Assembly: GCF_058153355.1 (NCBI RefSeq)
Contig: NZ_CM177019.1
Reading direction: 5' to 3' (one strand)
DNA: 64,000 nt
Shown piece after piece: positions 29,413 through 59,602 of the stretch. The position numbers and the translations under genes were made by a program. The notes below the pieces were generated by a model. It ran no database searches. It saw only the letters and a list, made by a program, of their open reading frames with translations, and was not told the DNA's origin. Within the stretch, counting starts at the first letter, position 1; every line of letters begins with the position of its first letter.

Positions 29413-31164
<1,752 letters not shown>

Positions 31165-32229
31165 ATGAGTAAAGTGAAAAGTATCACCCGTGAATCCTGG
31201 ATCCTGAGCACTTTCCCGGAGTGGGGTAGCTGGTTGAATGAAGAAATTGAACAAGAACAGGTAGCTCCTGGCACATTCGCGATGTGGTGGCTAGGCTGCA
31301 CCGGGATCTGGCTGAAATCGGAAGGTGGCACCAACGTTTGCGTCGATTTCTGGTGTGGTACTGGCAAACAAAGTCACGGTAACCCACTAATGAAACAGGG
31401 TCACCAGATGCAGCGCATGGCTGGCGTGAAAAAACTGCAGCCAAACCTGCGCACCACCCCGTTTGTTCTTGATCCGTTTGCGATTCGCCAGATCGACGCA
31501 GTACTGGCAACTCACGATCACAACGATCATATCGACGTCAACGTCGCTGCTGCCGTGATGCAGAACTGCGCTGATGACGTGCCATTTATCGGGCCGAAAA
31601 CCTGCGTGGATTTGTGGATTGGCTGGGGTGTGCCGAAAGAACGTTGCATCGTGGTCAAACCGGGCGATGTCGTTAAAGTGAAAGACATTGAAATTCATGC
31701 CCTTGACGCGTTTGACCGTACTGCACTGATCACTTTGCCTGCCGATCAAAAAGCGGCTGGCGTACTGCCAGACGGCATGGACGATCGCGCGGTAAACTAC
31801 CTGTTCAAAACGCCGGGCGGTACCCTGTATCACAGTGGCGATTCCCACTACTCTAACTACTATGCGAAGCACGGTAACGAGCATCAGATCGACGTGGCAT
31901 TAGGTTCATACGGTGAAAACCCACGTGGTATCACCGACAAAATGACCAGTGCTGATATCCTGCGTATGGCAGAAGCGCTGAATACAAAAGTGGTTATCCC
32001 GTTCCACCATGATATCTGGTCAAACTTCCAGGCCGATCCGCAAGAGATCCGCGTACTGTGGGAGATGAAAAAAGATCGCCTGAAGTATGGCTTCAAGCCG
32101 TTTATCTGGCAGGTCGGTGGCAAATTTACCTGGCCGCTGGATAAAGACAACTTCGAGTACCACTATCCACGTGGTTTTGACGATTGCTTCACCATTGAAC
32201 CGGATCTGCCGTTCAAGTCGTTCCTGTAA
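31165..32229 (+). CDS. ulaG: L-ascorbate-6-phosphate lactonase
   Basis: 354 aa from [12 protein letters not shown]; metallo-beta-lactamase motif HDHNDH. Confidence 0.93.
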
Positions 32230-32336
32230 TCTGTCGTTTATACCGGATGGCGTGGAGAAGTTCGCGCTATCCGGCGTAGTATTTCCTGGCTATTTCAAAT
32301 ATCATCTAAAAAAATCAAATTTTATCGGAATAGCTC

Positions 32337-33092
32337 ATGACTGAAGCACAAAGACATCAAATTCTCCTGGAAATGCTCGCACAATTGGGCTTTGTGACCG
32401 TTGAGAAAGTCGTTGAGCGTCTGGGAATTTCGCCTGCTACCGCTCGACGCGATATCAATAAACTTGACGAAAGCGGCAAACTGAAAAAAGTGCGCAATGG
32501 CGCAGAAGCCATCACCCAGCAGCGCCCACGCTGGACGCCGATGAATCTGCATCAGGCGCAGAACCATGATGAAAAAGTACGTATCGCTAAAGCAGCCTCG
32601 CAGCTGGTGAATCCCGGCGAAAGCGTCGTCATCAACTGCGGTTCCACCGCGTTTCTGCTTGGGCGGGAAATGTGTGGCAAGCCAGTGCAAATCATTACTA
32701 ATTATCTACCGCTGGCGAATTACCTGATCGATCAGGAGCATGACAGCGTGATTATCATGGGCGGCCAATACAACAAAAGCCAGTCCATCACCTTAAGTCC
32801 ACAGGGCAGCGAAAACAGTCTCTATGCCGGGCACTGGATGTTTACCAGCGGCAAAGGACTGACCGCAGAAGGGTTGTATAAAACTGATATGCTGACGGCA
32901 ATGGCAGAGCAGAAGATGTTGAGCGTGGTAGGGAAACTGGTGGTACTGGTTGATAGCAGTAAGATCGGCGAACGTGCGGGGATGCTCTTTAGTCGTGCAG
33001 ATCAAATCGATATGCTGATCACCGGCAAAAATGCTAACCCGGAAATCCTGCAACAACTGGAAGCGCAAGGGGTCAGCATTCTGCGTGTTTAA
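32337..33092 (+). CDS. ulaR: DeoR-family repressor of the ula regulon
   Basis: 251 aa; N-terminal HTH, DeoR C-terminal sugar-binding domain. Confidence 0.93.
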
Positions 33093-55794: not shown

Positions 55795-57773
<1,979 letters not shown>

Positions 57774-57775
<2 letters not shown>

Positions 57776-58913
57776 GTCAGAGCCCCTCGATCTCAATCAG
57801 TTAGCGCAAAAAATTAAACAGTGGGGGCTGGAACTGGGCTTTCAGCAGGTAGGTATTACCGATACCGATCTCAGCGCGTCCGAGCCCAAACTGCAAGCAT
57901 GGCTGGACAAACAATACCACGGCGAAATGGACTGGATGGCGCGTCACGGTATGCTGCGCGCCCGCCCCCATGAGTTATTGCCCGGTACGCTGCGCGTCAT
58001 CAGCGTGCGGATGAATTACCTTCCTGCTAACGCCGCATTTGCCAGCACGCTGAAAAACCCCAAACTCGGCTATGTAAGTCGTTATGCGTTGGGCCGTGAC
58101 TATCACAAACTTCTGCGCAACCGACTCAAAAAGCTGGGCGAGATGATTCAGCAACATTGTGTTTCGCTGAATTTTAGACCGTTTGTCGATTCTGCGCCTA
58201 TTCTCGAGCGCCCGTTAGCTGAAAAAGCAGGTCTTGGCTGGACAGGTAAGCACTCACTTATCCTCAATCGCGAGGCCGGTTCGTTCTTCTTTTTAGGTGA
58301 ATTACTGGTCGATATTCCGCTGCCCGTGGATCAACCGGTCGAGGAAGGATGCGGTAAATGCGTGGCTTGTATGACGATTTGCCCGACCGGCGCCATCGTC
58401 GAGCCATATACCGTCGATGCTCGCCGCTGTATCTCTTATCTCACCATTGAACTGGAAGGGGCGATCCCGGAAGAGCTGCGTCCATTGATGGGAAACCGTA
58501 TTTACGGTTGCGATGACTGCCAGCTTATCTGCCCATGGAATCGCTATTCGCAACTCACTACAGAAGACGATTTCAGCCCGCGCAAACCACTACACGCACC
58601 GGAACTCATTGAGTTATTCGCCTGGAGTGAAGAGACGTTTTTAAAAGTCACGGAAGGTTCGGCGATTCGCCGTATAGGTCACCTGCGTTGGCTGCGTAAT
58701 ATCGCCGTGGCATTAGGCAATGCCCCCTGGGATAAAACGATTTTGACAGCGCTGGAAAGTCGTAAAGGTGAGCACCCACTTCTTGATGAGCACATAGCGT
58801 GGGCGATTGCGCAGCAAATCGAGAGGCGAAATGCGTGCGTCGTAGAGGTACAACTACCGAAAAAACAGCGTCTGGTTCGCGTGATTGAAAAAGGGTTACC
58901 GCGTGACGCCTGA
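57774..58913 (+). CDS. queG: epoxyqueuosine reductase
   Basis: 379 aa from MSEPLDLNQ; 4Fe-4S motif CGKCVACMTICPTGA; track ORF 57666 is a 5' extension. Confidence 0.9.
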
Positions 58914-59172
58914 TTCATCCACAGCTTGTGAATAAAAATAAAAACGCATTGCAATTCAAGGCGAATAAAATCGTCAAGTGATCGACTCGACAAAACGAGA
59001 TCTTAATTTTCAACCTATATATCAATAAGTTAAAAAAATACTATTCACCGTGCGAAGTTTCTTTGAAATTAAGATTACGACATGAGGCTGTGGATAACTC
59101 TGTTTACAAGAGTTTGTCAGAGACAACAAAAACCAGCAATAACGCATCGCGTCGCTGTGGATATTTTATTGA

Positions 59173-59258
<86 letters not shown>

Positions 59259-59293
59259 TTGGGTGGTCTGTGCTTTGCAGCACTTTCAAATTT

Positions 59294-59369
<76 letters not shown>

Positions 59370-59526
59370 TTAATCTTCGTCTTTCGAACCGCTACTGCCT
59401 TGGCTGCCTTCACTCACCTTAGTCACTTACTTTTGTAAGCTCCCAAGGATTCGTTCAGTTGCCGCCTTGTCGCAATTCGAAATACTGCGATTGGGTGGTC
59501 TGTGCTTTGCAGCACTTTTCAAATTT

Positions 59527-59602
<76 letters not shown>

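What the first reader, a model, noticed from the sequence alone, without database searches (positions are those of the whole stretch)
57773..57776. Divergent nnr and queG start codons overlap in a CATG palindrome
With the gene lengths I recall for E. coli (nnr 515 aa, queG 379 aa), the two start codons fall on opposite strands within the same 4 nt (catg at 57773-57776). Each promoter would then lie inside the other gene's coding sequence, or one annotated start is wrong.
Basis: partly seen in the sequence, partly recalled or inferred. Interest (0 to 1): 0.2.

Follow-up and report, generated by a model that had tools for sequence, protein, structure and literature searches.

The report
Interlocked nnr and queG gene starts
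Two back-to-back housekeeping genes really do begin on opposite strands within the same four bases, so each carries the other's expression signals inside its own first codons; the overlap is real and anciently conserved, but it is already annotated and already catalogued in E. coli as a pair whose transcripts overlap.

Summary
CATG at 57773-57776 holds the queG ATG (+, 379 aa) and the nnr ATG (-, 515 aa), exactly as RefSeq annotates E. coli, including MG1655.

Both starts are well supported.
- The junction and both full-length ORFs are kept in 33 genomes of about 25 Enterobacterales genera.
- nnr Met1 has a conserved Shine-Dalgarno (GAGGGG, 7 nt upstream), made of queG codons 4-5.
- The only nearby alternative start (nnr Met6) is not conserved.

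- An extended -10 (TGgTATACT, 57734-57742), made of nnr codons 12-14, drives queG. It sits 7 nt before the published 5' end at 57750.
- nnr is transcribed from a -10 (TAAAAT, 58176-58171) inside queG codons 133-135, with a 5' end 388 nt upstream of its ATG.
- The two promoters face each other, and the transcripts overlap by about 413 nt.

Published work already reports double-stranded RNA here that is cut by RNase III, and lists queG-nnr among 16 divergent "excludons" of E. coli.

Added here: these dual-use codons show the lowest synonymous variation in either gene. In Pectobacteriaceae, where the genes have separated, the promoter copy and the coding copy evolved apart. No direct translation-start data could be retrieved. 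Already known; modest interest.

The parts
57773..57776 (.). CATG holding both start codons: queG ATG at 57774-57776 (+) and nnr ATG at 57775-57773 (-)
   Evidence: Same in RefSeq annotation. Kept in 33 Enterobacterales genomes.
57774..58913 (+). queG coding sequence (epoxyqueuosine reductase, 379 aa, stop included)
   Evidence: TIGR00276 equivalog, residues 14-348. Pfam DUF1730 and Fer4_16. Aligns to solved B. subtilis QueG from residue 6.
56228..57775 (-). nnr coding sequence (bifunctional NAD(P)HX epimerase/dehydratase, 515 aa, stop included)
   Evidence: NCBIfam PRK10565, residues 1-509. Pfam YjeF_N and Carb_kinase. Matches PDB 2AX3.
57734..57742 (+). queG promoter: extended -10, TGgTATACT, made of the reverse complement of nnr codons 12-14 (AGT ATA CCA); no recognisable -35
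   Evidence: AGT in 31/33, ATA or TTA in 33/33 and CCA in 29/33 genomes. Synonymous difference 0.025, rank 1 of 472 windows. Ends 31 nt before the ATG in 30 of 33 genomes. Kept in non-coding DNA where nnr has moved away. The published dPqueG deletion removes this stretch.
57750..57773 (+). queG 5' end and 24-nt U-rich leader without a Shine-Dalgarno, lying on nnr codons 1-9
   Evidence: Conway 5' end at U00096.2 4392114 = window 57750, taken from the Huang 2020 supplement. It lies 7 nt after TATACT. SD pairing only -2.25 kcal/mol. The first 66 nt are unusually unstructured, z = +2.0.
57783..57788 (-). nnr Shine-Dalgarno GAGGGG, 7 nt before the nnr ATG, made of the reverse complement of queG codons 4-5 (CCC CTC)
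   Evidence: CTC in 31/33 and GAT in 32/33 genomes with essentially no synonymous change (a single differing pair at codon 5, none at codon 6). queG codons 5-8 rank 1 of 372 windows. Pairing to the 16S tail averages -7.9 kcal/mol.
58171..58176 (-). -10 hexamer TAAAAT of the distal nnr operon promoter (TC just upstream), made of queG codons 133-135 (AAT TTT AGA)
   Evidence: The Conway 5' end lies 7 nt downstream. ggTCTAAAATTCAGCG is invariant in all 19 Enterobacteriaceae, including the rare AGA codon, and is lost in other families.
58163..58163 (-). 5' end of the nnr-tsaE-amiB-mutL-miaA-hfq... transcript, 388 nt upstream of the nnr ATG
   Evidence: U00096.2 4391701 (P), transcript running to T 4408049, in the Huang 2020 supplement after Conway 2014. 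Mapped to the window.
57750..58163 (.). Region transcribed on both strands (about 413 nt) that forms double-stranded RNA
   Evidence: Conway overlap 4391701-4392114. Lybecker dsRNA MS-212 at 4391717-4392100. p19-captured cluster S-361 at 4391754-4392109, including a 22-nt duplex across the CATG. Listed as a divergent excludon.

Best explanation
Both annotated starts are real, and the pair forms a compact, interlocked two-way control region. (1) queG is transcribed from a sigma-70 extended -10 promoter (TGgTATACT, 57734-57742) with no usable -35. The promoter is written in nnr codons 12-14. The mRNA starts at about 57750 and has a 24-nt U-rich leader with no Shine-Dalgarno and little structure. 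(2) nnr is translated from the ATG in the CATG, using a Shine-Dalgarno (GAGGGG) written in queG codons 4-5. (3) nnr is the first gene of the long nnr-tsaE-amiB-mutL-miaA-hfq... operon. In Enterobacteriaceae it is transcribed from a promoter 388 nt upstream, inside queG codons 133-135. (4) The two promoters therefore face each other about 413 bp apart. The two RNAs are complementary over that stretch, which includes both ribosome-binding sites. They pair in vivo and are cut by RNase III. Shown: the anatomy, the transcript 5' ends, the dsRNA, and selection on the embedded signals. Inferred: that pairing and head-on transcription make each gene dampen the other, and that the short N-terminal tails of both proteins (Nnr 1-16, QueG 1-5) are shaped largely by the partner's signals.
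For: Starts: one search lists the candidate starts. The CATG and both ORFs are kept in 33 genomes. The Shine-Dalgarno is conserved for nnr Met1 only. Codon 6 is ATG in 9 of 33 genomes and not a start codon of any kind (ATG, GTG or TTG) in 17 of 33. A 15-nt in-frame insertion in L009 and L012 keeps the nnr frame. The QueG N-terminus aligns with the solved B. subtilis QueG from residue 6.
Promoters: the Conway 5' ends fall 7 nt after TATACT and TAAAAT. The Katayama laboratory's dPqueG deletion removes this part of nnr.
Selection beyond coding: the lowest synonymous diversity in each gene falls on the embedded signals. nnr codons 12-14 score 0.025 (rank 1 of 472). nnr codons 2-4 rank 3 of 472. 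queG codons 5-8 rank 1 of 372. The gene-wide medians are 0.54-0.58.
Natural experiment: in Pectobacterium and Brenneria the genes are 146 nt or 1.2 kb apart. TGgTAACAT or TGgTAAAAT stays 31-32 nt before the queG ATG in what is now non-coding DNA. In Pectobacterium betavasculorum (L026) this DNA sits beside a dead nnr 5' remnant. The relocated nnr keeps the L-P-x-S-V-F peptide but drifts to TTG CCT, TTG CCG or AGC TTA CCT.
dsRNA: S-361 is among the top 20 coding p19 clusters in stationary phase. It coincides with Lybecker dsRNA MS-212 and the Conway overlap. queG-nnr is one of 16 divergent excludons found in at least 50% of 58 MG1655 transcriptomes.
Against: No ribosome-profiling start-site or N-terminal peptide data for either protein could be retrieved. 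The starts therefore rest on comparative evidence. The transcript 5' ends come from one RNA-seq operon map, read second-hand from another paper's supplement. I could not get an independent dRNA-seq or Cappable-seq confirmation. Low synonymous diversity near start codons is common in bacterial genes, so part of the signal in codons 1-12 is generic. Mutual repression has not been shown. The dPqueG strain was assayed only for datA transcription and replication-initiation phenotypes, and showed no effect on either. The distal nnr promoter is absent outside Enterobacteriaceae, so the 413-nt overlap is younger than the CATG, and nnr promoters in other families are unknown. One genome (L019, a MAG) has a 1-nt shift that forces nnr to start at the second ATG.
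Confidence: 0.78

Rival explanations
1. The nnr start is mis-annotated. Translation begins at the second ATG (Met6, window 57760), which leaves a 13-nt gap between the genes instead of an overlap.
For: ATG at 57760 is in frame. Codon 6 is ATG, GTG or TTG in 16 of 33 genomes. In L019 a 1-nt shift leaves this ATG as the only usable start. Residues 1-16 lie outside the conserved YjeF_N core.
Against: Codon 6 is not ATG, GTG or TTG in 17 of 33 genomes, for example AAG, GAA and CGG in Yersinia, Serratia and Hafnia. In those genomes Met1 is the only start upstream of the core. No Shine-Dalgarno precedes codon 6 (-2.5 kcal/mol), whereas Met1 has one in every genome (-7.9). Even if this rival were true, both promoters would still lie inside the partner gene.
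Confidence: 0.08
2. The anatomy is as described, but the overlap has no regulatory role. It is a tolerated by-product of genome compaction, and the dsRNA is simply cleared by RNase III as waste.
For: Both genes are weakly expressed housekeeping genes with no obvious reason to be mutually exclusive. No reciprocal expression has been reported. Deleting PqueG gave no phenotype in the assays used. Outside Enterobacterales the starts are 6-80 nt apart. Pectobacteriaceae lost the overlap without losing either gene.
Against: The junction is fixed in 33 of 37 Enterobacterales loci with adjacent genes. The -10-to-ATG spacing is exactly 31 nt in 30 of 33 genomes, although the intervening nnr codons are free to vary. 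The distal promoter is invariant across 19 Enterobacteriaceae, including a rare AGA codon. However, these facts show selection on each signal, not on the cross-talk between the genes.
Confidence: 0.35
3. The conservation around the junction reflects only protein-level constraint on the N-termini of Nnr and QueG, not embedded promoter or ribosome-binding signals.
For: The peptide motifs S-[IL]-P-H-S-V-W (Nnr) and P-L-D-L-N-Q-L-A (QueG) are conserved. The L-P-x-S-V-F motif survives in relocated Pectobacterium nnr.
Against: Protein constraint cannot explain the absence of synonymous change at six-fold Ser (always AGT), at Ile (always the rare ATA) or at Leu (always TTA or CTC). It also cannot explain the survival of the -10 motif in non-coding DNA, or the codon drift once the two functions are separated. 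The published 5' ends match the motifs to the base.
Confidence: 0.04

Closest known systems
Divergent excludons: neighbouring divergent genes with 5'-overlapping transcripts, first named in Listeria. In E. coli catalogued by ExcludonFinder (PMC12288877) and seen as p19 or dsRNA clusters such as rsd-nudC, asd-yhgN and rhlB-trxA (PMC7373196).
   Same: Divergent neighbours whose transcripts overlap at their 5' ends. dsRNA forms and is cut by RNase III. queG-nnr is itself on both published lists.
   Different: Here the coding sequences themselves overlap (start codon on start codon). The duplex therefore covers both ribosome-binding sites, and each gene's signals are written in the other's codons. 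Mutually exclusive expression, the functional hallmark of an excludon, has not been shown for this pair.
Face-to-face (convergent) promoters causing transcriptional interference, e.g. coliphage 186 pR/pL (established knowledge, not tested here).
   Same: Two promoters fire towards each other across a shared stretch, so polymerases can collide or occlude the opposing promoter.
   Different: The separation is about 413 bp rather than tens of bp. The relative promoter strengths are unknown, and no interference measurement exists for this locus.
Head-to-head overlapping protein-coding genes in bacterial genomes (from general knowledge, the rarest orientation class of gene overlap).
   Same: Two real genes on opposite strands share nucleotides at their 5' ends.
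   Different: The overlap is minimal (4 bp, two codons interleaved) and fixed across an order. The interesting dual coding is protein against regulatory signal, not protein against protein.
Extended -10 (TGn-TATAAT) sigma-70 promoters that work without a -35 element (established knowledge).
   Same: TG one base upstream of a TAnAnT hexamer, a start 7 nt downstream, and no -35 match at 16-18 nt (sequence).
   Different: This one lies entirely inside another gene's coding sequence, and its bases are fixed by codon choice. The simple -35/-10 scan did not detect it.

Membership tests
Divergent excludon | Adjacent genes on opposite strands, transcribed away from each other | tested here: met
   ORFs and annotation.
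Divergent excludon | Transcripts overlap at their 5' ends | tested here: met
   Published 5' ends map to 57750 (+) and 58163 (-), giving a 413-nt overlap. Each lies 7 nt after a conserved -10. Listed in at least 50% of 58 transcriptomes.
Divergent excludon | The overlap forms dsRNA processed by RNase III | tested here: met
   Literature only: p19 cluster S-361, Lybecker MS-212, and paired 21-22-nt reads on both strands, including across the CATG.
Divergent excludon | Expression of one gene lowers the other (mutually exclusive expression) | not testable with these tools
   No expression data after perturbing either promoter. The dPqueG strain was not assayed for nnr.
Head-to-head overlapping coding genes | Both ORFs encode real, conserved proteins | tested here: met
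   NCBIfam equivalogs PRK10565 and TIGR00276, Pfam and PDB relatives.
Head-to-head overlapping coding genes | Both start codons are the ones used in vivo | tested here: inconclusive
   Strong comparative support and exclusion of alternatives (and the 5' end). No ribosome-profiling or N-terminal peptide data were obtained.
Sigma-70 extended -10 promoter (queG) | TGn immediately upstream of a TAnnnT hexamer, with a transcript 5' end 6-8 nt downstream | tested here: met
   TGgTATACT at 57734-57742 with a 5' end 7 nt downstream. The motif is conserved in 30 of 33 genomes.
Sigma-70 extended -10 promoter (queG) | Activity independent of a -35 element; sigma factor identity | not testable with these tools
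   No TTGACA-like hexamer at 16-18 nt (sequence). Confirming this needs in vitro transcription or mutagenesis.
Shine-Dalgarno-led initiation (nnr) | A purine-rich stretch complementary to the 16S 3' end, 5-9 nt before the start | tested here: met
   GAGGGG 7 nt upstream. Pairing of -4.5 to -12.2 kcal/mol in all 33 genomes, against a background of -1.5 +/- 2.4.

The most novel reading that the evidence does not exclude
The interlock itself is the selected unit. Because both ribosome-binding sites occupy the same ~40 bp of duplex, any queG mRNA that pairs with an nnr-operon leader silences both at once. This would make a stoichiometric reciprocal switch between queuosine maturation and entry into the nnr-tsaE-amiB-mutL-miaA-hfq operon, fixed throughout Enterobacterales. 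As a corollary, the conserved N-terminal 'motifs' of Nnr (S-I/L-P-H) and QueG (P-L-D) are partly protein shadows of the partner's promoter and Shine-Dalgarno. The Pectobacteriaceae would then show how such a dual-use sequence is resolved by duplication and division of labour.
Probability: 0.25. Interest if true: 0.45.

Novelty: already known. Interest (0 to 1): 0.25.

Why it matters
nnr is the first gene of what Conway et al. 2014 called the most complex operon in their E. coli dataset (14 genes including mutL, miaA and hfq, with 8 promoters). Its primary promoter and its ribosome-binding site both sit inside queG. Three practical consequences follow.
- "Silent" recoding or clean deletion of either gene's 5' end will disturb the other gene. 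Changing nnr codons 12-14 should hit the queG promoter. Changing queG codons 4-5 should hit the nnr Shine-Dalgarno. Changing queG codons 133-135 should hit the distal operon promoter.
- Conserved N-terminal peptide motifs at this junction should not be read as purely protein features.
- The locus is a clean, small natural example of codons doing double duty as promoter and ribosome-binding signals, with a natural control in the Pectobacteriaceae.
It does not open a new kind of system.

Tried and rejected
1. The consensus -35/-10 scan of 57300-58300 found nothing. The real promoters lack a -35, so the scan was uninformative rather than negative.
2. I looked for independent transcript-start or translation-start data without success.
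   - Thomason 2015: paper not held.
   - Conway 2014, Meydan 2019 and ExcludonFinder: no supplements held.
   - TRAINSPOTTER, Cappable-seq, SMRT-Cappable-seq and Romero 2014: supplements held, but the genes and coordinates were not found.
   - INRI-seq: only an irrelevant PNA off-target entry for nnr.
3. A possible proximal nnr promoter (TGtTTTAAT, minus strand, about 57813-57821) was rejected. queG codons 14-16 vary freely at synonymous sites (0.51-0.57), codon 13 varies at the amino-acid level, and no 5' end is reported there.
4. An out-of-frame upstream ATG at 57764 in the queG leader is conserved (ATG in 29 of 33 genomes), but the ORF it opens varies from 8 to 50 codons. It is therefore not a conserved upstream peptide.
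5. Upstream GTG starts for queG (57729, 57666) were rejected because they lie outside the mRNA. TTG at 57796 for nnr was rejected because it directly follows an in-frame stop and precedes the Shine-Dalgarno.
6. No Rfam family matches 57400-58400 on either strand.
7. The idea that the window is E. albertii was dropped. QueG is 98.7% identical to E. albertii, but Nnr is only 95.7%, against 97.3% to a K-12 strain (NCM3722).

Full report
**1. The observation**

Window 57770-57779 reads cgtCATGtca.
- The + strand ATG at 57774 opens a 379-aa [18 protein letters not shown]....
- The - strand ATG at 57775..57773 opens a 515-aa [18 protein letters not shown]....
- The ORFs are QueG (TIGR00276, E 2.6e-153) and Nnr (PRK10565, residues 1-509).
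- RefSeq annotates the same 2-nt coordinate overlap in E. coli. In MG1655 it is queG complement(4392928..4394067) and nnr 4394066..4395613.

So the observation and the recalled gene lengths are correct.

The window itself is not ordinary E. coli. It is about 95.5% identical to most genomes at this locus and 90-95% in the ula region, and at least 99% identical to only 3-14 RefSeq "E. coli" records. The 93 nt around the junction are still identical to K-12.

**2. Are the starts right?**

One search lists every in-frame candidate.
- For queG, the alternatives are GTG at 57729 and 57666 upstream, and no canonical start (ATG, GTG or TTG) downstream until codon 51.
- For nnr, the alternatives are ATG at 57760 (Met6) and TTG at 57796. 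That TTG directly follows an in-frame stop.

I fetched 80 queG loci from one genome per species. In 33 genomes of about 25 Enterobacterales genera the CATG is present and both ORFs are intact: queG 379-391 aa and nnr 498-516 aa. The genera range from Escherichia, Citrobacter, Enterobacter and Kluyvera to Pantoea, Serratia, Yersinia, Rahnella, Hafnia, Budvicia and Edwardsiella.

Evidence for nnr Met1:
- It is preceded by GAGGGG or GAGAGG at 7 nt in every genome. Pairing with the 16S 3' end averages -7.9 kcal/mol. Codon 6 scores -2.5 and random positions score -1.5 +/- 2.4.
- Codon 6 is ATG in only 9 of 33 genomes. In 17 of 33 it is not ATG, GTG or TTG, and in several of those genera Met1 is the only start upstream of the conserved core.
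- A 15-nt insertion in two genomes keeps the frame.

Evidence for the queG ATG:
- It is invariant.
- The N-terminus aligns from residue 6 with solved B. subtilis QueG.
- The upstream GTGs lie outside the mRNA (see section 3).

Direct ribosome-profiling or N-terminal proteomics data could not be retrieved. This is the main gap.

**3. Where are the promoters?**

The supplement of Huang et al. 2020 (PMC7373196) reproduces the Conway et al. 2014 operon map for this locus. It shows a + strand operon with P at 4391701 and T at 4408049, and an overlap of 4391701-4392114 with the divergent operon, 413 nt, in U00096.2 coordinates. I converted these with U00096.3 = U00096.2 + 1977 and K-12 = 4451841 - window position, and checked the conversion against two sequenced reads.
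- The queG 5' end is at window 57750. That is 24 nt before its ATG and inside nnr codon 9.
- The nnr operon 5' end is at window 58163. That is 388 nt before its ATG and inside queG codon about 130.
- In K-12 the two ends lie exactly 7 nt after TATACT (preceded by TGg) and after TAAAAT (preceded by TC).
- Neither promoter has a -35 match, which is why the simple scan missed both.
- The Katayama laboratory's dPqueG deletion primer removes exactly this part of nnr.

Conway et al. describe yjeF(nnr)...rlmB as the most complex operon in their data, with 14 genes and 8 promoters.

**4. Selection on the embedded signals**

I built codon alignments of the 33 genomes. For each codon column I scored the fraction of same-amino-acid pairs that use different codons.

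| Region | Signal it encodes | Synonymous difference | Rank among windows |
|---|---|---|---|
| queG, whole gene | none | 0.52 | not applicable |
| nnr, whole gene | none | 0.55 | not applicable |
| nnr codons 12-14 | queG extended -10 | 0.025 | 1 of 472 |
| nnr codons 2-4 | queG -9..-1 | 0.073 | 3 of 472 |
| queG codons 5-8 | part of and flank of the nnr Shine-Dalgarno | 0.089 | 1 of 372 |

The lowest 7-codon windows in each gene are queG codons 1-12, nnr codons 7-16, nnr codons 1-9, and nnr codons 501-513, which overlap tsaE.

Codon detail:
- nnr codon 12 is AGT in 31 of 33 genomes. Codon 13 is ATA or TTA in 33 of 33. Codon 14 is CCA in 29 of 33. Their reverse complement is TGG-TA[T/A]-ACT.
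- queG codon 5 is CTC in 31 of 33 genomes and codon 6 is GAT in 32 of 33.

The extended -10 ends exactly 31 nt before the queG ATG in 30 of 33 genomes, even though the intervening nnr codons 5-11 vary freely.

The distal nnr promoter (ggTCTAAAATTCAGCG, including a rare AGA Arg codon) is invariant in all 19 Enterobacteriaceae. It is absent in Erwiniaceae, Yersiniaceae, Hafniaceae and Budviciaceae. The long 413-nt overlap is therefore younger than the CATG.

Caveat: some reduction of synonymous change near starts is generic to bacterial genes.

**5. A natural control**

In Pectobacterium and Brenneria the genes are 146 nt apart (L026, L032) or 1.2 kb apart (L035).
- Upstream of queG the extended -10 survives as TGgTAACAT or TGgTAAAAT, 31-32 nt before the ATG, in what is now non-coding DNA.
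- In Pectobacterium betavasculorum (L026) it lies beside a dead nnr 5' remnant, MMGHRNKQDVLMLPYL followed by further codons and a stop.
- The relocated nnr keeps the peptide L-P-x-S-V-F but uses TTG CCT, TTG CCG or AGC TTA CCT.

Photorhabdus and Xenorhabdus have no nnr within the ~2.5 kb examined beside queG. They also keep TGnTAnACT 32-34 nt upstream of queG.

Beyond Enterobacterales (Vibrionaceae, Alteromonadales, Idiomarinaceae, Tolumonas) the pair is often still divergent. The starts are 6-80 nt apart, and a TGTGnTAnAnT-like motif sits in the nnr 5' codons.

I conclude that the promoter is ancient, and that the codon-level conservation reflects promoter function laid over a protein requirement.

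**6. Consequences at the RNA level**

Published data for this exact stretch:
- dsRNA MS-212 (Lybecker 2014), 4391717-4392100.
- p19-captured RNase III products. Cluster S-361 is among the top 20 coding clusters in stationary phase. It includes paired 22-nt reads spanning the CATG.
- ExcludonFinder lists queG-nnr among 16 divergent excludons present in at least 50% of 58 MG1655 transcriptomes.

The duplex necessarily covers both ribosome-binding sites. Both initiation regions are unusually unstructured on their own. The queG region folds at -3.0 kcal/mol against -7.0 +/- 2.0 for shuffles (z = +2.0), and the nnr region gives z = +1.6. This fits an SD-less queG leader. No Rfam family matches.

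It is inferred, not shown, that pairing or head-on transcription actually tunes either gene.

**7. Verdict**

- The alternative, a wrong start, is unlikely.
- The overlap is already annotated and the transcript overlap is already catalogued.
- New here: the order-wide conservation, the base-level match between conserved dual-use codons and published 5' ends, and the Pectobacteriaceae resolution.
- Interest is modest.

Noticed in passing
whole window; tested at 57300-58300 and 30000-33000: The window is not typical E. coli. It is about 95.5% identical to most of 5,425 E. coli genomes at nnr/queG and 90-95% identical to 5,402 of them in the ula region. It is at least 99% identical to only 3-14 records labelled E. 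coli (e.g. EC42405). It is not E. albertii either (Nnr 95.7%). It probably comes from a cryptic Escherichia lineage.
   Followed up: partly
56228-56256: The nnr 3' end overlaps the tsaE start by 29 nt on the same strand. nnr codons 501-513 show the second-lowest synonymous diversity in the gene (0.10-0.26), presumably because they carry the tsaE ribosome-binding site and first codons.
   Followed up: partly
58233-58262 (queG codons 154-163): This is a second patch of low synonymous diversity in queG (0.28-0.36), 70-100 nt upstream of the distal nnr 5' end. It could be an upstream element or another promoter of the nnr operon, or a codon-usage effect. It is unexplained.
   Followed up: no
57789-57792 and queG codon 6: queG codon 6 is GAT in 32 of 33 genomes and never GAC, although it lies outside the Shine-Dalgarno core. 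With codon 7 it forms a GATC (Dam) site in 27 of 33 genomes. The cause of the invariance is unknown.
   Followed up: no
57764-57766: An out-of-frame ATG sits 10 nt before the queG ATG, inside the 24-nt leader. It is ATG in 29 of 33 genomes and GTG or TTG in 3. The ORF it opens varies from 8 to 50 codons, so it is probably a shadow of nnr His4 (CAT) rather than an upstream ORF.
   Followed up: yes
58896-59100: In annotated relatives a 17-aa ORF (yjeV) lies on the opposite strand across the queG 3' end. Two DnaA-box matches (TTATTCACA at 58927-58935 and TTATCCACA at 59089-59097) mark the datA locus between queG and the tRNA-Gly genes. ExcludonFinder lists yjeV-queG as a convergent excludon.
   Followed up: partly
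59183-59602: Three tRNA-Gly(GCC) genes lie on the - strand with spacers of 35 and 157 nt. The K-12 strain NCM3722 has spacers of 35 and 36 nt. There is therefore about 120 nt of extra DNA between the second and third tRNA here, and likewise in strain EC42405.
   Followed up: no
L026 2355-2501; L032 2354-2501; L035 1303-2501: In Pectobacteriaceae the interlock has been pulled apart. The queG-proximal DNA keeps the promoter, with a decayed nnr 5' remnant in L026, and the relocated nnr keeps the peptide with drifted codons. In L035 a 321-aa ORF of unknown function sits between the genes.
   Followed up: partly
L019 2486-2502: A soil MAG has a 1-nt shift between the CATG and the MKKNP ATG, so nnr there can only start at the second ATG. 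This is either a real variant or an assembly error.
   Followed up: no
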